A program made the translations under genes and the position numbers. The notes beneath the pieces were generated by a model. That model searched no databases. It saw only the letters and a program-made list of their open reading frames with translations, and was not told where the DNA came from. Shown here one piece after another: positions 47,083-54,416 of a DNA stretch of 64,000 nt. The DNA is taken from IMG/VR virus record IMGVR_UViG_3300036792_000284, positions 1 to 64,000 of that record; one strand, 5' to 3'. Source of the DNA: a virus. Numbering within the stretch: position 1 is the stretch's first letter; each line of letters begins with the position of its first letter.

Positions 47083-48033
47083 CTACGGGGTGGGCTGGTT
47101 GCTCACGAAGAAGACGTAGCCGGTGTGCGTGCCGATGATCTGGCGGTTGCTGCCCTGGCCGGTGACCGGCGTGTAGAGCACGGTGTAGCCGTGGTTCGGC
47201 AGCAGGCCGGAGTAGACGCCCGTGTTCTCCACGCCGCCACCCTGGCCGTGCACCCACCCCTGGTGGCCATTGATGGCACCAGGACCGACGATGACGAACT
47301 TGTCCCAAGCGGTGAGGGTCTGCTTGTAGCTGACGTTCTCGCGCGTCGCCGCGACGAAGACGGCGTGACCACCGTAGAGGACCGGCACCGGGCAGATGCG
47401 CCCGGTGATGTTCCCGTCAGCAGCCAGGTTGCCGTCGCCGTTGATGGCGCTGTCAGTCCAGCTTTCGCACGCGGTCGCGTACGTCCAGCTCCAGACCTGG
47501 TTCTCCGTCACCACGGCGAGCGCCGGGTTGGCGAAGACCTGAGCGGGCCACTGGGCCGTCGTGTTGTTGCCAGCCGGGGCAGCGAAGTTGTCGTTCTCGA
47601 CCACGGGCCCGGCCGGCGCGACCAGGTTGTCAGTGCTCGGCGCGACCACGGTGTAGGAGATGCCGCCACTCATGGTGCCCTTGACCGCGTGGGCGACCAG
47701 CGCCCCGGCCGTGACCTGGTTCGGGGTCTTGGTGCCCTGGACAGAGCTGAACCCGCCGTTGTCAACCACGGTGGCGACGTAGTCCGTCTTCCCGGCAGCA
47801 GCGTCGGCCGGATTCTGGGTGGCCGCCACAGCGACGGTCAGCGTGCGCGTGAAGCTGTCGTACGCCCACGTGCCGCCGTTCCCGCCGTCGGGGCGGTTCA
47901 CGATGTGCGTGACCTGGGTGACCGTGGTCGGGGTCGCGGCGCTGGCAGCGCTCATGGCAGCCACACCGCCGCCCAGAGCCACTGCGGATACAGCCGCGGC
48001 GGTAATAAGCCGCCTGCCAAACCTCATATGCAA
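47083..48033 (-). CDS. Secreted beta-rich protein
   Basis: Signal peptide RFGRRLITAAAVSAVALGGGVAAMSAASA; RBS aggagg. Confidence 0.75.
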   Translation of the reverse strand: MHMRFGRRLITAAAVSAVALGGGVAAMSAASAATPTTVTQVTHIVNRPDGGNGGTWAYDSFTRTLTVAVAATQNPADAAAGKTDYVATVVDNGGFSSVQGTKTPNQVTAGALVAHAVKGTMSGGISYTVVAPSTDNLVAPAGPVVENDNFAAPAGNNTTAQWPAQVFANPALAVVTENQVWSWTYATACESWTDSAINGDGNLAADGNITGRICPVPVLYGGHAVFVAATRENVSYKQTLTAWDKFVIVGPGAINGHQGWVHGQGGGVENTGVYSGLLPNHGYTVLYTPVTGQGSNRQIIGTHTGYVFFVSNQPTP

Positions 48034-48233
48034 TCCTCCTGTTACGAGCCCCTGTGCTTGTCACGAGGCAACTGACAACTATTACGTACCAGGAAGATCA
48101 GCAGGGCGGTTTTCCCCTAAAACGTGGCCGGAACGCAAAAGCCCCGCCAGTCCCGGAGGGACGGCGGGGGGTAGTAGGTCCAGCTTAGTACGAAGTTGTG
48201 CAGATATGCTGCCACAGCGTGAGCATCTTCGAG

Positions 48234-48306
48234 TGGCCTCGGCTGGACTCGAACCAGCGACCCACGCCTTAGGAGGACGCGGCTCTATCCACTGAGCTAC
48301 GGGGCC
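48234..48306 (-). tRNA. tRNA-Arg(CCT)
   Basis: Cloverleaf; loop CT-CCT-AA. Confidence 0.9.
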
Positions 48307-48307
48307 C

Positions 48308-48383
48308 TGGAGGCGGAAACCGGAATCGAACCGGTGTGCGTCGCTTTGCAGGCGACTGCATATCCAGACTCTGCCATACCGCC
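48308..48383 (-). tRNA. tRNA-Cys(GCA)
   Basis: Cloverleaf; encoded CCA. Confidence 0.9.
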
Positions 48384-48384
48384 G

Positions 48385-48461
48385 TGGTGCGCTCGGAGGG
48401 ACTCGAACCCCCGACCCCTGGTTCCGGAAACCAGTGCTCTATTCCACTGAGCTACGGGCGC
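48385..48461 (-). tRNA. tRNA-Arg(CCG)
   Basis: Cloverleaf; encoded CCA. Confidence 0.9.
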
Positions 48462-48462
48462 T

Positions 48463-48546
48463 TGGTGACGGACGCAGGAATCGAACCTGCCGTGCCGAAG
48501 CAGCCGGGTTACAGCCGGCCCCCATGCCATCTCGGGTCACTCCGCC
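48463..48546 (-). tRNA. tRNA-Tyr(GTA)
   Basis: Cloverleaf with long variable arm. Confidence 0.9.
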
Positions 48547-48547
48547 T

Positions 48548-48622
48548 TGGGGTTGGTAACGAGAATCGAACTCGTATATCTGGAGCCACAGTCCAGCGCT
48601 CTGCCGTTGAGCTATACCGACC
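48548..48622 (-). tRNA. tRNA-His(GTG)
   Basis: Cloverleaf; G-1:C73. Confidence 0.9.
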
Positions 48623-48623
48623 G

Positions 48624-48695
48624 TGGGCGATGCTGGGATCGAACCAGCGACAACTGGTGTGTGAGACCAGCGCTCTTCCGCTGAGCTAAACGCCC
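48624..48695 (-). tRNA. tRNA-Val(CAC)
   Basis: Cloverleaf. Confidence 0.9.
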
Positions 48696-48706
48696 TCGTA
48701 CTTGCG

Positions 48707-48779
48707 TGCCCCCCGGGAGACTCGAACTCCCACCCTCCTGATCCGTAGTCAGACGCGCTATCCGTTGCGCTAGAGGGGC
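48707..48779 (-). tRNA. tRNA-Arg(ACG)
   Basis: Cloverleaf. Confidence 0.9.
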
Positions 48780-48783
48780 AAAG

Positions 48784-48855
48784 TGGGCGTACCTGGGGTT
48801 GAACCAGGGTCCTCTTCCGTGTCGGGGAAGCGCGCTTCCGCTGCGCTACACGCCC
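48784..48855 (-). tRNA. tRNA-Val(GAC)
   Basis: Cloverleaf; C33. Confidence 0.85.
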
Positions 48856-48896
48856 ATCGCTAGACAGTGGTCAAGAAACAGGTACCGTTTAATCAC

Positions 48897-49031
48897 GTGG
48901 ACACTTTCATCCTGCTGGCCATCGTCTTCGCTGCCGGCGTCTGGGTCGGCATGCGGTTCGGCGGCAGGCGCGCGCTGTGGCGGCTGCACACCGGGAACTA
49001 CAAGAAGATGGTCCGTGACCTCGACCTGTGA
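48897..49031 (+). CDS. 44-aa membrane peptide antisense to tRNA array
   Basis: MDTFILLAIVFAAGVWVGMRFGGRRALWRLHTGNYKKMVRDLDL; high GC3 codon usage. Confidence 0.6.
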   Translation: MDTFILLAIVFAAGVWVGMRFGGRRALWRLHTGNYKKMVRDLDL

Positions 49032-49032
49032 G

Positions 49033-49108
49033 CGCTCCTGACGGGATTCGGACCCGCGGTCTCCACCGTGACAGGGTGGCGGGGACGGCCAGACTCCCCT
49101 ACAGGTGC
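49033..49108 (-). tRNA. tRNA-Asp(GTC), atypical
   Basis: Cloverleaf; T-loop GTCCGAA, A3:A70 mismatch. Confidence 0.75.
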
Positions 49109-49120
49109 ATGTGTACTGCG

Positions 49121-49195
49121 CTCTCGCGGCAGGATTCGAACCTGCAACCCCCCGATTAACAGTCGGGCGCTAACTGCCAGTTGAGCTACGCGAGA
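49121..49195 (-). tRNA. tRNA-Asn(GTT)
   Basis: Cloverleaf. Confidence 0.9.
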
Positions 49196-49214
49196 TCGCT
49201 TGAGAGGCCTCCGG

Positions 49215-49979
49215 TTATTTAGCCCTTATCCAGCAGGGCCAGCCACGTATTCCCCGGAGCTTACGCCGGCCGCCAGTGCCGGACCTCGGTAAACAGTAAA
49301 GGCTCCCGGCGCCAGGAGCCCTCGCTGCTCTGTTGCCAGCCTGTCGAGGTGACTGGTCAGACCGTGGCGGGGGCAGGATTCGAACCTGCGTCTTCCGGGT
49401 TATGAGCCCGGGCTGGGACCTAGCTCCAGTCACCCCGCACCGTGTGGCACCAGGATAGCCCCCCAGGTGCCCGTGCTGCCGACGGGAATCGAACCCGTGT
49501 CGCTTATCCGGTTTGAAGGACCGGCGGCCCCTATCCAGCAGAGCAACGACAGCATGTAACTTAACGTGAGCCCAGTCAATCCCGCACCTGACACGGCTGA
49601 CCGTAGCCCGGGAAACTCCAAAACGTGCAGCAGCTGCCCGGGTGGGCTCACTTGATGCCCTGATCTCACGCACCAACTGTGGAGTCAGCTTGGCCTGAAC
49701 CTGCTGCTCTCCGTGCAACTTCTCCCCGGCAGACTTCTCATCATGATGCGGCCGACAGAGCACTTGGCACTTAGCTAGCTCAAGCTCACGCCGCATGCGC
49801 GACCACGACCAGACGTTATGACTAACCTTCAAGGCAGGGTCAATATGGTCCAGTTGAAGGTCATCGGCGCTGCCGCACCGGACACACGTCTTGTCGGCGA
49901 ACCAGGATGCACGAGTAGCTGCGGCCCGCTCTCTCTGGTATCTGCGCTGCTGTTCCGGGTCCTTATAGGGCACAAACAA
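49215..49979 (-). CDS. HNH homing endonuclease (HNH + HTH, ~140 aa core) whose frame reads on through two tRNA genes
   Basis: CVRCGS.DDLQLDHIDP..ELAKCQVLCRPHH; NUMOD/HTH-like RFGVSRATVSRV. Confidence 0.8.
   Translation of the reverse strand: MFVPYKDPEQQRRYQRERAAATRASWFADKTCVRCGSADDLQLDHIDPALKVSHNVWSWSRMRRELELAKCQVLCRPHHDEKSAGEKLHGEQQVQAKLTPQLVREIRASSEPTRAAAARFGVSRATVSRVRCGIDWAHVKLHAVVALLDRGRRSFKPDKRHGFDSRRQHGHLGGYPGATRCGVTGARSQPGLITRKTQVRILPPPRSDQSPRQAGNRAARAPGAGSLYCLPRSGTGGRRKLRGIRGWPCWIRAK
49365..49439 (-). tRNA. Initiator-type tRNA-Met(CAT)
   Basis: GGG/CCC anticodon stem, 1:72 mismatch. Confidence 0.8.
49474..49553 (-). tRNA. Atypical tRNA, best fold Glu(TTC) (loop CCTTCAA, 9-nt variable region)
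   Basis: Acceptor GCTGTCG/CGGCAGC, canonical T arm. Confidence 0.6.
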
Positions 49980-49982
49980 GTG

Positions 49983-50054
49983 TAACCCCTACCGCGTATA
50001 ACCCGTGCTCTCGCCTTGAAAGGACGGCGACCTCGGCCGCTAGTCGATGGGGGC
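49983..50054 (-). pseudogene. Degenerate tRNA-Glu(TTC) with destroyed T arm
   Basis: GCCCCCATCGACTAGCGGCCGAGGTCGCCGTCCTTTCAAGGCG intact; T loop replaced by GGGTTATACGCGG. Confidence 0.65.
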
Positions 50055-50186
50055 TCAGGAGACGAGCCGAATACCTTGTCTAAGGGCTCGGCCCGCTCCA
50101 CCGTGCCTGATATGTGTGCCAAGGCCGACTTCCCTCCGGTAGACAGTCCGGAGGTACTCACACACTGGGACAGGCTTGCCCGGCCG

Positions 50187-50261
50187 TGGTCCTGGCGGGC
50201 TTCGAACCCGCGTCACCGACTTGAGGGGCCGGCGTCCTGAGCCTGACTAGACGACAGGACC
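50187..50261 (-). tRNA. tRNA-Glu(CTC)
   Basis: Cloverleaf. Confidence 0.85.
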
Positions 50262-50272
50262 ATGTTCTTGCG

Positions 50273-50346
50273 CGCGCCGTGCAGGACTCGAACCCGCGAC
50301 CGTTCGCTTAGAGGGCGACCGCTCTGTCCGACTGAGCTAACGGCGC
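50273..50346 (-). tRNA. tRNA-Arg(TCT)
   Basis: Cloverleaf. Confidence 0.85.
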
Positions 50347-50350
50347 TGGG

Positions 50351-50422
50351 TGAGCTGCCAGGGACTTGAACCCTGTTCCCTGGATTAAAAGTCCGGTGCA
50401 TAGCCGTACATGCTCGCAGCCC
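50351..50422 (-). tRNA. tRNA-Lys(TTT)
   Basis: Cloverleaf; near-identical to Lys(CTT) copy. Confidence 0.85.
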
Positions 50423-50423
50423 G

Positions 50424-50500
50424 TGGTAGCGGTAGCGGGACTTGAACCTGCGACCTCGCGAATTATGAGTTCGGCGCTCTGCCAGCTGAGCTATACCGCC
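50424..50500 (-). tRNA. tRNA-Met/Ile2(CAT), elongator type
   Basis: Cloverleaf; encoded CCA. Confidence 0.85.
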
Positions 50501-50501
50501 G

Positions 50502-50575
50502 TGGGCGAGGCAGGATTTGAACCTGCGTCCTTCTCCTTATCAGAGAGCTGCTCGAACCGACTGAGCTGCTCGCCC
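50502..50575 (-). tRNA. tRNA-Ile(GAT)
   Basis: Cloverleaf. Confidence 0.85.
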
Positions 50576-50576
50576 G

Positions 50577-50663
50577 TGGAGGAGACGGTGGGATTCGAAC
50601 CCACGGGGCCGTAGCCCGCCGGTTTTCGGGACCGGAGCCTTAATCCACTCGTGCCACGTCTCC
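50577..50663 (-). tRNA. tRNA-Ser(CGA)
   Basis: Long variable arm; CCA. Confidence 0.9.
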
Positions 50664-50664
50664 A

Positions 50665-50750
50665 TGGAGGAACGGGCGGGATTCGAACCCGCGGGGCCGT
50701 GGCCCTCCACGCTAGCAACGTGGTGCGATCGTCCGCTCTGCCACCGTTCC
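50665..50750 (-). tRNA. tRNA-Ser(GCT)
   Basis: Long variable arm; CCA. Confidence 0.9.
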
Positions 50751-50754
50751 AAAG

Positions 50755-50839
50755 TGTCCGAGGAGAGATTTGAACTCTCACGCCCCGTGTGGAGCACTAG
50801 GGCCTGAACCTAGCGTGTCTGCCGTTCCACCACCCGGAC
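50755..50839 (-). tRNA. tRNA-Leu(CAG)
   Basis: Long variable arm. Confidence 0.9.
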
Positions 50840-50840
50840 T

Positions 50841-50916
50841 TGGAGCCGACGACGGGACTCGAACCCGCGGCCTCAACCTTGGCAAGGTTGCACGCTTCCA
50901 GCTGCGCTACGTCGAC
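50841..50916 (-). tRNA. tRNA-Gly(GCC)
   Basis: Cloverleaf; CCA. Confidence 0.9.
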
Positions 50917-50928
50917 ATGCTTACTGCG

Positions 50929-51001
50929 AGCCCGGAAACGGATTTGAACCGATGGCCTCTTCCGTACCGAGGAAGCGCTCTGCCTACTGAGCTATCCGGG
51001 C
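50929..51001 (-). tRNA. tRNA-Thr(GGT)
   Basis: Cloverleaf. Confidence 0.85.
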
Positions 51002-51032
51002 ATACTGGTCTCCGACAAGCGGAGGTAGCTAC

Positions 51033-51149
51033 ATGAACAAGGGCGCCAGCATCGCTAACGGGCCGATGCCGCACCAAGTGCCACAAGAAGTCCTCGACGC
51101 GAAAGCCGTCTCCACGACCTCCTGGGACCTAATCGAGCCGGGCATTTAG
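51033..51149 (+). CDS. 38-aa peptide antisense to tRNA array
   Basis: RBS ggaggtag; MNKGASIANGPMPHQVPQEVLDAKAVSTTSWDLIEPGI. Confidence 0.45.
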   Translation: MNKGASIANGPMPHQVPQEVLDAKAVSTTSWDLIEPGI

Positions 51150-51245
51150 AGAGGGCGTTCTTTAGGCCAGGGTTGTTGGCATCTTGAACTAACGGAAGCC
51201 CTGGCCCCCGCCCGGCCCCGCCGTAGGTACCGGATCTCCCTCAGG

Positions 51246-51331
51246 TGTCCGAAGCGGGACTCGAACCCGCACGCCCCTTGCGGGACACCCGCACCTCAAG
51301 CGGGTCAGTCTACCAATTGCAGCATTCGGAC
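51246..51331 (-). tRNA. tRNA-Leu(GAG)
   Basis: Long variable arm. Confidence 0.9.
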
Positions 51332-51341
51332 TTGATTTACA

Positions 51342-51462
51342 GGAGAACCCGAAGACCGGACCCCGGCGTGCACACCGAGGCGGCTGCCCTCACTCCGACT
51401 AGTTGCGGCCTGCGCACGACCGACTGGCACGGCGAGTCTTCTGGGGATGTTGCACGTTCTCC
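51342..51462 (-). ncRNA. Putative structured spacer RNA
   Basis: Closing stem GGAGAAC/GTTCTCC plus inner GAAGAC/GTCTTC. Confidence 0.35.
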
Positions 51463-51464
51463 CG

Positions 51465-51537
51465 AGCCCCGAACCGGCATCGAACCGATGACCTCCCCAT
51501 TACGAGTGGGGCGCTCTGCCATCTGAGCTACCGGGGC
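51465..51537 (-). tRNA. tRNA-Thr(CGT)
   Basis: Cloverleaf. Confidence 0.9.
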
Positions 51538-51548
51538 ATTGTTACCAG

Positions 51549-51619
51549 CTGGAGTACCTGGACTCGAACCAAGACCGACGGGTTCAGGGCCCGTCACGCT
51601 GCCATTACGCCATACTCCA
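51549..51619 (-). tRNA. tRNA-Gln(CTG)
   Basis: Cloverleaf. Confidence 0.85.
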
Positions 51620-51716
51620 CCGTCGCCGGGGCCCTTTGCTCGCCCCGGAGTGACGACCTTGTTCCTCCCCAGGGAGGGGCCGGGCAAGGATTCGCAGGAC
51701 GGCCTTGCCAGCCGTG

Positions 51717-51791
51717 TGGGCGAGGCGGGATTCGAACCCGCACGTTCCGCTGTTTGAGAGCGGCGAGTCTGCCGAGTTGCCCCACTCGCCC
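51717..51791 (-). tRNA. tRNA-Leu(CAA) with short (class I) variable arm
   Basis: Loop CT-CAA-AC; 5-nt variable region. Confidence 0.75.
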
Positions 51792-51826
51792 TGAGGACCC
51801 GGCGAGCATCGCTCCCCGGGCCCAAG

Positions 51827-51898
51827 TGCGCCGCCAGGGACTTGAACCCCGTTCCCTGGATTAAGAGTCCGGTGCATAGCCGTACATGCTCGCGGCGC
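51827..51898 (-). tRNA. tRNA-Lys(CTT)
   Basis: Cloverleaf. Confidence 0.85.
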
Positions 51899-51992
51899 GT
51901 AACCCGGACCTATTCTGGCCTCACAGCACTTATGCGAGGCGCTGTAGTCTATTTGGCCAGGTGGTTTCCGGGGGCGGTATGCATCCCGCCAG

Positions 51993-52065
51993 AGGGGATG
52001 ACGGGAATCGAACCCGCATCTGCTGATTGGAAGTCAGTCATCCTGAGCCATTGGACGACATCCCC
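51993..52065 (-). tRNA. tRNA-Gly(TCC)
   Basis: Cloverleaf. Confidence 0.85.
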
Positions 52066-52079
52066 GTTGTGTTACTGCG

Positions 52080-52152
52080 TAGGACCTGGAGATTCCGAGA
52101 CTCCGACCTGCAGGGTTTCAATCTGCCGCTCTGCCATCTGAGCTAAGGCCCC
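52080..52152 (-). tRNA. tRNA-Phe(GAA), atypical T loop
   Basis: D and anticodon arms canonical; T arm GGAG-TCTCGGAAT-CTCC. Confidence 0.65.
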
Positions 52153-52155
52153 ATA

Positions 52156-52270
52156 GTGACAGCTCACTCAGGAAACCACGGGAACCCGGTACCCGAGCCT
52201 CTCCTGGGATGGACGTCTCCACTTCCGCTGACTACCGCTTAAAGGCGGCTCCTGCGTCGGAGCTGTCAAG
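52156..52270 (-). ncRNA. Novel ~115-nt structured RNA, copy A
   Basis: TGACAGCTC/GAGCTGTCA closing stem; shares CGA.GCAGGAGCC and GGGTACCGGGTTCCC with copy B. Confidence 0.65.
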
Positions 52271-52342
52271 TCGGGACACAGGGACTCGGACCCCGTCTGC
52301 CTGCTCCCAAAGCAGGCGCGCTAACCCTTACGCGATATCCCG
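52271..52342 (-). tRNA. tRNA-Pro(TGG)
   Basis: Cloverleaf; T loop variant GTCCGAG. Confidence 0.8.
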
Positions 52343-52347
52343 TAGAC

Positions 52348-52479
52348 GGGCGGAGTGCTGCCGTTACACCACAGCCCTCAGCTCCTCGGGGCGGCCTACC
52401 CCGGCGTCCCTGGTGGCCACCAGGTCGGCGCGGAACCTTCGCGAGAGCTGCCGGGGACTTGAACCCCGGACTGCCGCCC
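52348..52479 (-). ncRNA. Circularly permuted tRNA-like RNA 1 (YrlA-like architecture)
   Basis: Order T arm - acceptor stem with ~65-nt insert - D arm, closed by GGGCGG/CCGCCC. Confidence 0.75.
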
Positions 52480-52558
52480 TGGTCGGGGTGGTGAGATTTG
52501 AACTCACGACCTCTTCGTCCCGAACGAAGCGCGCTCGACCAAGCTGCGCTACACCCCG
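52480..52558 (-). tRNA. tRNA-Pro(CGG)
   Basis: Cloverleaf; CCA. Confidence 0.9.
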
Positions 52559-52561
52559 AAG

Positions 52562-52677
52562 GTGACGGTGCACCCAGTCCGCCCGGGGAACCCGGTACCC
52601 CGGCGCAGGCTCAGGCCATGCGTCCATGCTTCGGCCGACCACCTCTTTGCGGAGGCTCCTGCTTCGGCACCGTCAAG
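52562..52677 (-). ncRNA. Novel ~115-nt structured RNA, copy B
   Basis: TGACGGTGC/GCACCGTCA closing stem covarying with copy A. Confidence 0.65.
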
Positions 52678-52688
52678 TCGAACTAAGT

Positions 52689-52802
52689 TCACGGCATGAC
52701 CGTCCAGCTGTTGGTCTGCTCGTGCAACTGGATCTCACTGTGGCGAACCCAAGACGGCTCGCCGGGCCCGCCGGTGCAAGCGACGTTTCCCTTGTCTCCC
52801 AT
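52689..52802 (-). CDS. 37-aa peptide inside tRNA array
   Basis: RBS gggaggt; MGDKGNVACTGGPGEPSWVRHSEIQLHEQTNSWTVMP. Confidence 0.45.
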   Translation of the reverse strand: MGDKGNVACTGGPGEPSWVRHSEIQLHEQTNSWTVMP

Positions 52803-52853
52803 GAGGATTACCTCCCCTCAGCAGTCGGCATGTTTTCCACACCAGCTACTACG

Positions 52854-52926
52854 TGGAGCCTGCGGGATTCGAACCCGCGACCTTTTCCGTGCGAGGGAAC
52901 TGCGCTACCAGTTGCGCCAAGGCCCC
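52854..52926 (-). tRNA. tRNA-Ala(CGC)
   Basis: Cloverleaf; G3:U70. Confidence 0.9.
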
Positions 52927-52930
52927 AGAT

Positions 52931-53060
52931 GCGGCACTCTGCCAATTGAGCTACCGGCCAGCGACAGCCAGACTGACCCCGGCTTTCCGCTAAGCGTACT
53001 GACCTGGTGCTGACTGCCTCGCATGTGACCGGGCAGGACTCGAACCTGCAACCCGCCGCC
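52931..53060 (-). ncRNA. Circularly permuted tRNA-like RNA 2
   Basis: GCGGC..GCAGG-TTCGAGT-CCTGC-CCGGTCA-[~65 nt]-TGGCCGG-TA-GCTC-AATTGGCA-GAGT-GCCGC. Confidence 0.75.
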
Positions 53061-53061
53061 G

Positions 53062-53134
53062 TGGAACCTGCCGGATTCGAACCGGCGACCTCCTGCATGC
53101 CATGCAGGCGCGCTACCAGCTGCGCCAAGGCCCC
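53062..53134 (-). tRNA. tRNA-Ala(GGC)
   Basis: Cloverleaf. Confidence 0.9.
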
Positions 53135-53349
53135 AGAGTGCGGCAGGCCGGACCGCGGTGTGAACACGGCCCCGCCCGCCACGTCTGAACAGGCAGCTCT
53201 TGTATCCGCTTCTTTCGCTGCCTGCAACCGGGACATAATCAACGGCCCCGGCTGCGGCGGGATGGCGCCCGCCGCTGATGCTCACGCTGTGGAGTTAGCA
53301 AGTTACGGTGACATGCGCCTGCGCGGGCTCTCGCCGTTGCTGACGGTCG

Positions 53350-53421
53350 CAGGGACGGGGGGAGTCGAACCCTCATTCCGCTGGTTTTGGAGACCAGCCG
53401 CCGAGCCGCTGGCTCGTCCCT
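53350..53421 (-). tRNA. tRNA-Trp(CCA)
   Basis: Cloverleaf. Confidence 0.85.
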
Positions 53422-53812
53422 AAGTTGACTTACTTGTGAGTCTGTGGTTCCGGTTGTACTCGGACTTCCTGGCTCTGCATGGACCACACGGGCAGTTCCT
53501 CTTGCCAGAGACTCCGCCTCCGTGGTCTACGCCTACCTCGCTCCGAGTCTTCTCCAGGTGATGCTCCCGGCAGAGAAGCTGGCACTTCGCTAGTTCTGCC
53601 TGTAGCTCAGCCGGGCTCCGGTTCCACCTGTCCGTGATGGCGAACTCTTTCAGCTCACGCTCAACATGATCGAACTGCAGGTCTTCCGAAGAACCGCACC
53701 GAACACATTTCCCGCCCAGCAACTCGATGAGCTTTGCCTTCGCGGCTTGGTAGCGGGCCTGGTCGTAATCCGACCGATCCCACTCTGCAGCCCACCACTC
53801 TCTGTCTGGCAT
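53420..53812 (-). CDS. HNH homing endonuclease
   Basis: LGGKCVRCGSSEDLQFDHV..ELAKCQLLCREHH..CPCGPC; stop overlaps tRNA-Trp 5' end. Confidence 0.85.
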   Translation of the reverse strand: MPDREWWAAEWDRSDYDQARYQAAKAKLIELLGGKCVRCGSSEDLQFDHVERELKEFAITDRWNRSPAELQAELAKCQLLCREHHLEKTRSEVGVDHGGGVSGKRNCPCGPCRARKSEYNRNHRLTSKST

Positions 53813-53854
53813 ACCTGGTACTACGTGCGAGTTTGTCTCTGTTGAGTTGTCCCA

Positions 53855-53902
53855 CTAAAAAACCGCCTCGCCGGATTCTCTCCGGGGGCGGCTCCTGCAG
53901 GT
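53855..53902 (-). terminator. Intrinsic terminator upstream of tRNA array
   Basis: gccgcccccggagagaatccggcgaggcgg-tttttt on minus strand. Confidence 0.6.
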
Positions 53903-54108
53903 CAGGATTTGGCCTTAGCCAGGAACCACCTCGCCGGGGATGTAATTGTCTTCGGGCAGCATGCAGGCTGCGAAGGGCTCGTGCCCTCGCTGCCACTGCT
54001 TGCTCGATGACCTGCTCACCATGACTCCTAGCCTAGCCAGACGCTCGTTCAGCGCCACCCGTTTTATCGGATGCTTCTACCGTACTACCCTGCTTGACTC
54101 GTGTCAAC

Positions 54109-54384
54109 CTACATTTCGGAGAACAAGTTGGCGGCCAGACCGCTGGCCACCCCCGCCTGGTCGTCCAGCAGGACCTGCCGGACTAGCGGGTCCCCAGCGG
54201 CGCGGATGTCGGCCGGGCCGATGTAGGTGCGCTCGCCCCGCATCACCCGGACCGCGGTGATGGCGTCCATCAGGCGCTCGGGCTTCTCCCCCAGCGGCCC
54301 GGCCAGCTCGCCCATGGTCTTCTCGCGGTCCGCCTCGCCGAGCCCGGCCGCGTACTCCATCAGCTTCTCGAACGGCATCTGCAT
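54109..54384 (-). CDS. Hypothetical protein
   Basis: RBS ggag; ORF track. Confidence 0.6.
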   Translation of the reverse strand: MQMPFEKLMEYAAGLGEADREKTMGELAGPLGEKPERLMDAITAVRVMRGERTYIGPADIRAAGDPLVRQVLLDDQAGVASGLAANLFSEM

Positions 54385-54416
54385 GCGTTTCTCCGTCTAG
54401 CCCTCTATAGCCCTGT

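What the first reader, a model, noticed from the sequence alone, without database searches (positions are those of the whole stretch)
52156..52677. Two-copy ~115-nt structured RNA motif with covarying stems inside the tRNA array
Seen: copy A (52156-52270) and copy B (52562-52677) align. Closing stems are TGACAGCTC/GAGCTGTCA and TGACGGTGC/GCACCGTCA (compensatory changes). Both have conserved CGA(C/A)GCAGGAG, then a hairpin CCGC/GCGG versus CCTC/GAGG, then conserved GTC(A/G)GC(G/C)GAAG, a GACG-tetraloop hairpin (TGGA/TCCA versus CATG/CATG) and invariant GGGTACCGGGTTCCC. Both are preceded by CGACT and end 3-4 nt before a tRNA. It does not match tRNA, SRP, tmRNA or ribozyme cores that I recognise. 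Inference: an undescribed small RNA or processing ribozyme family.
Basis: seen in the sequence. Interest (0 to 1): 0.75.

Follow-up and report, generated by a model that had tools for sequence, protein, structure and literature searches.

The report
New folded RNA in phage tRNA array
Two copies of a roughly 115-base, cloverleaf-shaped non-coding RNA sit flush between tRNA genes of an uncultured high-GC phage; four related phages carry it too, compensating mutations keep its fold, it matches no catalogued RNA family, and its job is still unknown.

Summary
Both copies lie on the minus strand, the strand of all 33 tRNA genes. Copy A is 52270->52156 and copy B is 52677->52562. With covariance models I found four more copies in four related contigs: three IMG/VR phages of 146-162 kb and one metagenome contig. 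Across the six copies, 95.6% of cells pair, against about 40% in slid controls. Of 42 pairs, 21 show compensatory changes, and G-U outnumbers A-C 21 to 3.

The fold is a four-way junction. A 9-bp terminal stem P1 closes three arms. The linkers CGA, GAA and U are conserved, P3 has a GACG loop, and P4 is a long arm.

Rfam 15 gives no match even at E<=10. The RNA is not a tRNA, a YrlA or a known ribozyme.

The RNA always lies in the tRNA-Pro cluster. P1 starts 2-3 nt after a tRNA 3' end and ends 4-5 nt before the next tRNA. It has no promoter or terminator of its own.

Its distribution is patchy. It is absent from 32 related phage records, including one whose flanking tRNA-Pro is 99% identical.

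My best reading is a stable small RNA cut out of the tRNA precursor by tRNA-processing enzymes and acting in trans. The ribozyme idea is neither supported nor excluded.

An overlapping window of this scan noted the same stretch. It was not noted on other DNA.

The parts
52156..52270 (-). Copy A of the RNA (115 nt), between tRNA-Pro(tgg) (52270/52271-52342) and tRNA-Phe (52079-52152)
   Evidence: R1 gives 136.5 bits and R2 gives 119 bits. Flanks are shown.
52260..52268 (-). Copy A, P1 5' strand UGACAGCUC
   Evidence: Pairs with 52157-52165. All 9 pairs of P1 are paired in all 6 copies, and 5 of them show compensatory changes.
52226..52256 (-). Copy A, P2 arm. It has a 3-bp base, an AG/R internal loop, 2 further pairs (5'-GA/UC-3'), an RG bulge, an apical stem and a 6-nt loop ending in AA
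   Evidence: RNAalifold. Helix 2 has 10 pairs, 4 of them with compensatory change.
52209..52222 (-). Copy A, P3 hairpin (5 bp) with the invariant GACG loop. The invariant GAA linker lies just before it (52223-52225)
   Evidence: 4 of 5 pairs show compensatory changes. The loop is invariant in all 6 copies.
52167..52208 (-). Copy A, long imperfect P4 arm. Its apex is GGG-UACCGGGUU-CCC (52180-52194)
   Evidence: Helix 4 has 18 pairs, 8 with compensatory change. The 15-mer is located.
52157..52165 (-). Copy A, P1 3' strand GAGCUGUCA. It is followed by C + UAU and then tRNA-Phe
52562..52677 (-). Copy B of the RNA (116 nt), ending 3 nt upstream of tRNA-Pro(cgg) (52480-52558). It is preceded by UUCGACU but not by an intact tRNA
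   Evidence: R1 gives 137.4 bits and R2 gives 112.6 bits. Flanks are shown.
52667..52675 (-). Copy B, P1 5' strand UGACGGUGC
   Evidence: Pairs with 52563-52571.
52633..52663 (-). Copy B, P2 arm
52616..52629 (-). Copy B, P3 hairpin CAUG-GACG-CAUG plus the closing G.G position
52573..52615 (-). Copy B, P4 arm with the apex 15-mer at 52586-52600
52563..52571 (-). Copy B, P1 3' strand GCACCGUCA

Best explanation
This is a gene for a small, compactly folded non-coding RNA of 109-117 nt. It belongs to a previously uncatalogued family carried by a lineage of large (about 125-160 kb), 69-71% GC phages whose nearest isolate infects an actinobacterium.

It is transcribed as part of the long tRNA precursor, on the same strand and without a promoter or terminator of its own. 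Its 5' and 3' ends pair in a 9-bp stem (P1). P1 begins 2-3 nt after the discriminator base of an upstream tRNA-Pro (in one copy its first base is the A of an encoded CCA) and ends 4-5 nt before nucleotide +1 of the next tRNA. RNase P cutting the downstream tRNA, together with an endonucleolytic cut at the upstream tRNA 3' end, would therefore release it as a discrete RNA with both ends protected in a helix.

Its arms follow the same order around a four-way junction as in a tRNA cloverleaf, but none has tRNA loop signatures. The conserved unpaired bases are the linkers CGA, GAA and U, the AG/R internal loop of P2, the GACG loop of P3 and the AA at the 3' side of the P2 loop. These most likely build a tertiary core or a binding surface for a host protein or a protein common to all these phages.

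Shown: the sequence family, the fold, the strand, the flush placement and the patchy distribution. Inferred: excision by the tRNA-processing enzymes, stability, and action in trans. The molecular target is unknown.
For: - Fold: RNAalifold on an independent MAFFT alignment of 5 copies gives 42 pairs. 93.3% of cells pair, against 39-44% in slid controls. 19 pairs are compensatory, and 0 of 500 shuffles reach this. With the sixth copy the figures are 95.6% and 21 pairs.
- Strand: 21 G-U pairs against 3 A-C.
- Homologues: L002 at 117.6 bits and L005 at 95.8 bits, L093 at 87.6 bits, L257 at 76.6 bits.
- Placement: always inside the syntenic block Trp-Ala-Ala-Pro...Phe, flush with tRNAs on both sides.
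- Transcription signals: no promoter-like site in 47800-54400. The only terminator-like site that lies outside a tRNA gene and downstream of the array start follows the last tRNA.
- Not coding: copy lengths are 109/115/115/116/116/117 nt with internal indels that are not multiples of 3.
- No partner gene: no phage protein gene co-occurs with the RNA in all three full genomes that carry it. This points to a host partner or a universal phage partner, if there is one.
Against:
- The RNA is dispensable. It is absent from 32 related records, 10 of them at least 90% complete. One of these is G008, whose tRNA-Pro(tgg) is 99% identical to this phage's yet is followed by a 10-nt spacer.
- The family is very small: 6 copies in 5 contigs.
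- No partner or target has been identified.
- The tight abutment to an encoded CCA in L093 and L257 is not easily handled by 3' exonucleases. RNase Z is commonly inhibited by an encoded CCA (background knowledge), so the 5' cut remains unexplained.
Confidence: 0.55

Rival explanations
1. It is a self-cleaving ribozyme of a new class. It cuts just 5' of P1 and so frees the 3' end of the upstream tRNA-Pro, as the HDV-like 'theta' ribozymes behind phage tRNAs are proposed to do.
For: - P1 starts 2-3 nt after the discriminator of the upstream tRNA. In L093 it follows an encoded CCA directly, and in L257 the A of CCA is the first base of P1. An endonucleolytic cut exactly there would be useful.
- The size, the multi-helix junction and the strictly conserved unpaired bases are typical of small ribozymes.
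Against: - No Rfam ribozyme family (hammerhead, twister, twister-sister, pistol, hatchet, HDV-like, hairpin) matches, even at E<=10.
- The hammerhead-like CUGAGUGA of copy A reads CUGGGUG or AUGGGUG in the other copies.
- The 5' and 3' ends pair with each other, unlike the HDV fold.
- Dozens of other tRNAs in the same arrays are 0-13 nt apart without any such element.
- Copy B has no intact tRNA upstream.
- The two bases before P1 are not conserved: CU, CA or CC.
Confidence: 0.12
2. It is a cis-acting structural spacer of the tRNA precursor. It would act as a folding insulator or a processing platform, for example an RNase P or RNase Z guide, with no function once excised.
For: - It sits flush between tRNAs and only inside arrays.
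- The arrays of this phage lineage hold many other conserved non-tRNA spacers.
- Its cloverleaf-like arm order could let RNase P cut 5' of P1.
- It is dispensable in close relatives.
Against: - Purifying selection acts on unpaired bases and loops (GACG, GAA, CGA, the AG loop and a 15-mer identical in 5 of 6 copies). That is more than a mere spacer hairpin needs.
- The flanking tRNAs differ between copies (Pro/Phe, Pro/Pro, none/Pro), so it does not serve one particular tRNA.
Confidence: 0.12
3. It is a Y-RNA-type module that binds the host Ro60 orthologue (Rsr). On this reading it supplies the Ro-binding part to the anticodon-less tRNA mimics (YrlA-like 'heads') encoded next to it in the same array.
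For: - The bacterial Rsr-binding motif GNCGAAN0-1G (Chen et al. 2014, PMC4201824) occurs as GCCGAAG in 4 of 6 copies (copy B, L002, L093, L257), in the most conserved stretch.
- Neighbouring spacers give weak hits: YrlA at 19.9 bits (52958-53074) and a tRNA-like hit at 18.7 bits (52445-52479).
- Earlier notes of this scan describe Y RNAs as common in phage tRNA arrays. These are unchecked leads.
Against: - RF02553 gives no hit on the RNA at E<=10.
- The motif lies at an internal junction (P2 base, J2/3, first base of P3), not in the 5' strand of the terminal stem.
- Its C is G in copies A and L005, and this base covaries with a pairing partner. It therefore behaves as a helix position, not as a recognition base.
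- There is no T-arm or D-arm.
- No TROVE/Ro60 gene is present in G000, G001, G002, G003 or G008, while the control genomes did give a hit.
Confidence: 0.07
4. It is a mimic or decoy related to tRNA-Pro. The P4 apex ACCGGGU would imitate an anticodon loop (C33, CGG, G37), or present a CCG codon to tRNA-Pro. It would then titrate an anticodon nuclease, ProRS or TrmD, or pair with tRNA-Pro.
For: - It is always inside the tRNA-Pro cluster.
- Among the syntenic arrays it co-occurs with tRNA-Pro(ggg). G001, G002, L093 and G035 have both; G003, G004, G007 and G008 have neither.
- The apex 15-mer is identical in 5 copies that are otherwise 56-81% identical.
Against: - L257 lacks the CCGGGUU part of the loop altogether and has a GUAC tetraloop, while the rest of the RNA is kept.
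- A32/U38 and a U.U closing pair are unusual for an anticodon loop.
- The linkage to the Pro cluster can be explained by one ancestral insertion followed by recombination between paralogous tRNA-Pro genes.
- G019 has a tRNA-Pro(ggg) but no such RNA.
Confidence: 0.07

Closest known systems
Phage T4 small stable RNAs of the tRNA gene cluster (RNA C / RNA D, 'species 1 and 2'). This comparison rests on my background knowledge; no paper was retrieved.
   Same: A non-tRNA RNA of about 115-140 nt, encoded inside a phage tRNA cluster on the tRNA strand. It is co-transcribed with the tRNAs, its ends are defined by tRNA processing, and its function is unknown.
   Different: No sequence similarity was found. 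A blastn search of the phage collection, which should include T4-like phages, matched only the tRNA parts of the query. The fold is different, the phage lineage is unrelated (high-GC, actinophage-like), and accumulation in vivo has not been shown here.
YrlA / bacterial Y RNAs (Rfam RF02553; Chen et al. 2014, PMC4201824)
   Same: A small RNA whose 5' and 3' ends form a terminal stem. It is found in phage tRNA arrays, and a GNCGAAG-like string is present in 4 of 6 copies. Weakly YrlA-like tRNA mimics lie in neighbouring spacers.
   Different: There is no match to the YrlA model, there are no T- or D-arm look-alikes, the motif sits at an internal junction, and the phages have no Ro60 gene.
tRNA (RF00005)
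   Same: A four-way junction with the same arm order. The linkers are short (3, 3, 0 and 1 nt) and the terminal stem is formed by the two ends. It lies in a tRNA array and could be an RNase P substrate.
   Different: The terminal stem has 9 bp. There is no 7-nt anticodon loop (P3 has a 4-nt GACG loop), no T-loop or D-loop consensus and no CCA or discriminator. It is 109-117 nt long. Neither ARAGORN nor RF00005 detects it.
HDV-like 'theta' ribozymes behind phage tRNAs, and other small self-cleaving ribozymes (from my background knowledge)
   Same: It sits directly 3' of a phage tRNA, it is small, and it has conserved junction bases.
   Different: It lacks the nested double pseudoknot, since its ends pair with each other. 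No Rfam ribozyme model matches. Cleavage is untested.

Membership tests
Any Rfam 15 family (4227 models) | Score at or above the family's gathering threshold, or at least a match at E<=10 | tested here: not met
   No hit overlaps 52156-52270. Within 52562-52677 there are only two partial chance-level hits: Flavivirus_SLIV at 16.7 bits (E=5) and flavi_FSE at 12.5 bits (E=6.7).
tRNA | Cloverleaf with a 7-bp acceptor stem, a 7-nt anticodon loop and T-loop/D-loop consensus | tested here: not met
   ARAGORN and RF00005 find the 33 neighbouring tRNAs but not this RNA. P3 has a 4-nt loop and P1 has 9 bp.
tRNA | It would fill a gap in the phage's decoding set (tRNA-Tyr appeared to be missing) | tested here: not met
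   Relatives have Tyr(gta) between His and Arg(ccg). The window has an 86-nt gap at that position (48462-48547) with a 30.2-bit tRNA-clan hit, so tRNA-Tyr lies there.
YrlA / Y RNA (RF02553) | Match to the covariance model, with the T-arm- and D-arm-like tRNA domain | tested here: not met
   No RF02553 hit on either copy at E<=10. No GGUUCGA-type loop is present.
YrlA / Y RNA (RF02553) | GNCGAAN0-1G motif in the 5' strand of the terminal stem (PMC4201824) | tested here: inconclusive
   GCCGAAG is present in 4 of 6 copies and GCGGAAG in the other 2. The string is internal (P2 base, J2/3, P3), and the variable base covaries with its pairing partner.
YrlA / Y RNA (RF02553) | Encoded next to a Ro60 (TROVE) gene | tested here: not met
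   PF05731 is absent from G000, G001, G002, G003 and G008. The control genomes gave hits.
Hammerhead, twister, twister-sister, pistol, hatchet and hairpin ribozymes | Family covariance model or catalytic-core consensus (for example CUGANGA...GAAA) | tested here: not met
   No model matches. The CUGAGUGA of copy A is not conserved in the other copies.
HDV-like / theta ribozymes | Nested double pseudoknot in which the 5'-terminal P1 strand pairs with an internal strand | tested here: not met
   The 5'-terminal strand pairs with the 3' terminus: 9 of 9 pairs in all copies, 5 of them compensatory. No Rfam HDV family matches.
Any self-cleaving ribozyme | Site-specific self-cleavage | not testable with these tools
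   This needs in vitro transcription or RNA end mapping.
Stable small RNAs of phage tRNA clusters (T4 RNA C / RNA D kind) | Non-tRNA gene inside the tRNA cluster, on the same strand, flush with tRNAs and without its own promoter or terminator | tested here: met
Stable small RNAs of phage tRNA clusters (T4 RNA C / RNA D kind) | Accumulates as a discrete processed RNA in infected cells | not testable with these tools
   No expression data were obtainable.
Stable small RNAs of phage tRNA clusters (T4 RNA C / RNA D kind) | Sequence homology to the T4 RNAs | tested here: not met
   A blastn search against 50,697 phage records matches only the tRNA parts of the query.

The most novel reading that the evidence does not exclude
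The RNA is a new class of self-cleaving ribozyme, or a new RNase P-dependent tRNA-shaped processing module. It would generate the 3' end of the abutting tRNA-Pro. This includes tRNAs whose encoded CCA runs straight into a stable helix, where exonucleases and RNase Z would be expected to fail.
Probability: 0.12. Interest if true: 0.85.

Novelty: new variant of a known kind. Interest (0 to 1): 0.5.

Why it matters
Phage tRNA arrays are turning out to hold other small RNAs besides tRNAs, including Y-RNA-like tRNA mimics, the T4 RNA C and RNA D species, and large ornate RNAs. Almost none of these has a known function.

This family is small but unusually well defined. It has a complete secondary structure with compensatory changes in every helix, exact boundaries set by neighbouring tRNAs, and clear presence/absence contrasts between near-identical arrays. 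That makes it a tractable test case in two ways. One is how non-tRNA RNAs exploit the tRNA-processing machinery for their own biogenesis. The other is what such RNAs do during infection: act as decoys for host tRNA-targeting defences, as protein scaffolds, or as catalysts.

If it proved to be a ribozyme, it would add a new class linked to tRNA 3'-end formation.

Tried and rejected
- **Rfam.** Searches at gathering and at E<=10 thresholds gave nothing.
- **tRNA-Tyr replacement.** Rejected. Tyr lies in the His-Arg(ccg) gap, and relatives that carry the RNA have a normal Tyr(gta).
- **5S rRNA, SRP/4.5S, tmRNA, permuted tRNA.** Considered by eye. The arm number and order do not fit, and no model matches.
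- **CAG/CUG helix.** I first placed a helix between J1/2 and the 3' region in model R1. I dropped it because L093 breaks it and RNAalifold pairs those bases within P2 and P4 instead.
- **Looser DNA patterns in IMG/VR.** 60 loci gave no further members. The genome-contig scan (GTDB species genomes) gave 8 chance hits and no member. Plasmids gave no hit. Blastn against phage isolates matched tRNAs only.
- **Nearest isolate.** Microbacterium phage Magritte (major capsid protein 49% identical) gave only a 15.9-bit chance hit inside coding sequence.
- **Related IMG/VR records.** 32 records gave no hit at E<=0.1. Filter-off searches of four syntenic arrays and of G019 gave only weak hits (at most 15.8 bits) in non-homologous places.
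- **Co-occurring protein gene.** None is shared by G000, G001 and G002 and absent from G003, G007, G008 and G010.
- **Target-site duplication or clean insertion scar.** None was seen when G000 was compared with G008.
- **Anticodon- or codon-mimic reading of the P4 loop.** Weakened by L257.
- **Coding potential.** One antisense frame is open in all copies, but this is expected at 70% GC, and the indels break any common frame.
- **Fremin and Bhatt catalogue of viral structured RNAs (PMC10690425).** No supplement is held, so overlap could not be checked.

Full report
**Context.** The window is the first 64 kb of a 124,279-bp IMG/VR virus record that is 82% complete. Its GC content is 69%. Its major capsid protein is 49% identical to that of Microbacterium phage Magritte, the only close isolate, and 53-90% identical to the 80 best of 173 uncultured viral contigs that encode a relative. 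Positions 48233-53421 hold 33 tRNA genes, all on the minus strand. The finding lies inside this array.

**The observation.** The 15-mer GGGUACCGGGUUCCC occurs exactly twice in the whole record. The two copies share 76 of 116 aligned positions. They are diverged paralogues, not a fresh duplication, and copy B is nearer to copies in other phages (78-79%) than to copy A (65%).

**Homologues.** A covariance model of the two copies (R1) was run over loci fetched with short DNA patterns.
- It found full-length matches in IMGVR_UViG_3300036831_000148 (L002, 117.6 bits) and IMGVR_UViG_3300035704_000001 (L005, 95.8 bits).
- It found one in metagenome contig Ga0210389_10002355 (L093, 87.6 bits).
- A five-sequence model (R2) and a pattern taken from the P2/P3 region then found a sixth copy in IMGVR_UViG_3300031823_000001 (L257, 76.6 bits).

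Nothing turned up in 60 further IMG/VR loci, in the genome-contig scan, in plasmids or in isolate phages.

**Structure.** RNAalifold on a plain MAFFT alignment of five copies predicts a four-way junction.
- P1 is a 9-bp stem formed by the two ends.
- The linker CGA follows.
- P2 is a long arm: a 3-bp base, an AG/R internal loop, 2 further pairs (5'-GA/UC-3'), a 2-nt bulge, then an apical stem. Its variable 6-7-nt loop always ends in AA.
- The linker GAA follows.
- P3 has 5 bp and an invariant GACG loop.
- There is no linker between P3 and P4.
- P4 is a long imperfect arm of 15-20 pairs.
- A single U then leads into the 3' strand of P1.

On that alignment 93.3% of cells pair, against 39-44% when the partners are slid by 1-3 columns. 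19 of 42 pairs show a change on both sides, and none of 500 shuffles reaches the observed values. With six copies aligned to the model (an alignment that leans towards the structure) the figures are 95.6% and 21 pairs, and every helix has compensatory changes. The pairs include 21 G-U but only 3 A-C. The RNA is therefore read from the minus strand, like the tRNAs. Copy lengths are 109, 115, 115, 116, 116 and 117 nt, with internal indels that are not multiples of three, so the region is not protein-coding.

**What is conserved.** Apart from the helices, the conserved bases are the junction linkers, the AG/R loop, the string G-G-U-N-N-N-C-R-G-C-S-G-A-A-G, the GACG loop, and the base of P4 (CC...GG followed by UG). 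The P4 apex GGG-UACCGGGUU-CCC is identical in five copies. In L257 it is replaced by GCGGG-GUAC-CCCGC. The nine-base loop is therefore not essential to the family.

**Placement.** All five contigs share the array order Trp, Ala(ggc), Ala(cgc), the Pro genes, Phe, Gly(tcc), Lys(ctt), Leu(caa), Gln(ctg) and so on. The RNA is always within the Pro cluster, but at different places.
- In L093 it lies after Pro(cgg).
- In G002 and G035 it lies after Pro(ggg).
- In G001 and in copy A it lies after Pro(tgg).
- Copy B lies before Pro(cgg).

The Pro isoacceptors themselves are orthologous between genomes. In five of six copies, P1 starts 2-3 nt after the discriminator A of a tRNA-Pro. In L093 P1 follows an encoded CCA directly, and in L257 the A of CCA is the first base of P1. 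Copy B has the same CGACU in front of it but no intact tRNA. P1 ends 4-5 nt before the next tRNA. The window shows no promoter-like site between 47800 and 54400. The only terminator-like site outside a tRNA gene and downstream of the array start follows the last tRNA.

**Distribution.** R2 finds nothing at E<=0.1 in 32 related IMG/VR records, 10 of which are at least 90% complete. Four of these (G003, G004, G007, G008) have the same syntenic array with other spacers at that position. G008 has a tRNA-Pro(tgg) 99% identical to the window's, yet only 10 nt separate it from tRNA-Phe.

Among the syntenic arrays the RNA goes together with tRNA-Pro(ggg). G001, G002, L093 and G035 have both, and G003, G004, G007 and G008 have neither. 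G000 has two copies of the RNA and a tRNA-like remnant where Pro(ggg) would be. A distant phage with a differently ordered array (G019) has a Pro(ggg) but not the RNA.

No protein gene is shared by the three full genomes that carry the RNA and absent from four that lack it.

**What it is not.**
- Rfam 15 gives no meaningful match at E<=10.
- It is not a tRNA: the loop signatures are wrong and neither ARAGORN nor RF00005 detects it.
- It does not stand in for the apparently missing tRNA-Tyr. That tRNA lies in the 86-nt His-Arg(ccg) gap.
- It is not a YrlA-type Y RNA. Earlier notes of this scan suggested that lead, so I tested it. The Rsr-binding motif GNCGAAN0-1G of Chen et al. (PMC4201824) does occur as GCCGAAG in four copies. 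However, it sits at an internal junction, its C behaves as a covarying helix base, the YrlA model does not match, and none of five phage genomes has a TROVE gene.
- Known ribozyme cores are absent.

**Most likely mechanism.** The paired termini, the flush placement between tRNAs, the shared strand and the lack of own signals point to a small RNA that is co-transcribed with the tRNAs. It would be released when RNase P cuts the downstream tRNA and an endonuclease cuts between the upstream tRNA and P1. The arm order around the junction is that of a tRNA cloverleaf, so RNase P itself might make the 5' cut; this step is inferred. The conserved unpaired bases argue for a specific tertiary core or binding surface. 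That fits a trans-acting RNA with a host partner or a universal phage partner better than a passive spacer. I give this reading 0.55.

The ribozyme reading (0.12) gains some plausibility from the CCA-abutting copies but has no positive evidence. The cis-spacer reading (0.12), the Y-RNA-type reading (0.07) and the tRNA-Pro mimic reading (0.07) are the other rivals.

**Novelty and verdict.** This is a real, well-supported and apparently undescribed structured RNA family. It belongs to a known general kind, the non-tRNA small RNAs embedded in phage tRNA arrays, but has a fold of its own. Its function is unknown and its distribution is narrow. An overlapping window of this scan noted the same stretch (e1-5975300). 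I found no note of it on other DNA.

Noticed in passing
window 52343-52479 (minus strand): The 137-nt spacer between tRNA-Pro(cgg) and tRNA-Pro(tgg) contains a perfect T-arm plus acceptor-like 3' strand (GGCAGUCCGGGGUUCAAGUCCCCGGCAGCUC; mascRNA-type hit, 18.7 bits). No tRNA is called there. Four relatives (G001, G002, L093, G035) carry tRNA-Pro(ggg) in the Pro cluster. Other first-reader notes call it a circularly permuted tRNA mimic.
   Followed up: partly
window 52927-53060 (minus strand): The spacer between the two tRNA-Ala genes gives a weak full-length YrlA (RF02553) hit at 52958-53074, which runs into tRNA-Ala(ggc): 19.9 bits against a gathering score of 69. The hit includes a good T-arm look-alike. 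A similar spacer is present in G001.
   Followed up: partly
window 51620-51715 (minus strand): The 96-nt spacer between tRNA-Leu(caa) and tRNA-Gln(ctg) is conserved in length (96-103 nt) and sequence in all six full genomes compared. It folds into three hairpins and has no Rfam hit. It is probably another uncatalogued array RNA, and it is more widespread than the one studied here.
   Followed up: partly
window 53135-53348 and 48856-49031 (minus strand): The Trp-Ala(ggc) spacer is conserved in 6 of 6 genomes by blastn clustering, and the Asp-Val(gac) spacer in 5 of 6. Their nature was not examined.
   Followed up: no
window 48462-48547 (minus strand): ARAGORN misses a tRNA here. The 86-nt gap between tRNA-His and tRNA-Arg(ccg) is where relatives have tRNA-Tyr(gta), and the Rfam tRNA clan gives 30.2 bits at 48467-48546. 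The array therefore probably covers all 20 amino acids.
   Followed up: partly
window 52689-52802 (minus strand): A 37-codon ORF (MGDKGNVACTGGPGEPSWVRHSEIQLHEQTNSWTVMP), preceded by GAGGGGAGG, lies in the roughly 175-nt stretch upstream of copy B inside the tRNA array. That stretch had no blastn counterpart among the array spacers of the other five genomes. Whether it is a real gene is unknown.
   Followed up: no
L244:783-861 (G019, a distant relative): A 79-nt element flush before tRNA-Asn gives a weak R2 hit (12.5 bits, E=0.055 in 6 kb). It has a P1-like stem UUGGCAGGC/GCCGCCAA and a CCGAG-GACG-CUCGG hairpin but no P4 arm. It could be a chance match or a distant P4-less relative.
   Followed up: partly
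L191:1354-1501 (G003) and L193:2127-2337 (G004): Where the window has copy A, these relatives carry other inserts after tRNA-Pro(tgg). These include tRNA-like remnants with good T-arms (for example CAGGGUUCGAGUCCCUG) followed by unrelated hairpins. The Pro-Phe junction appears to be a hot spot for array-embedded RNAs.
   Followed up: no
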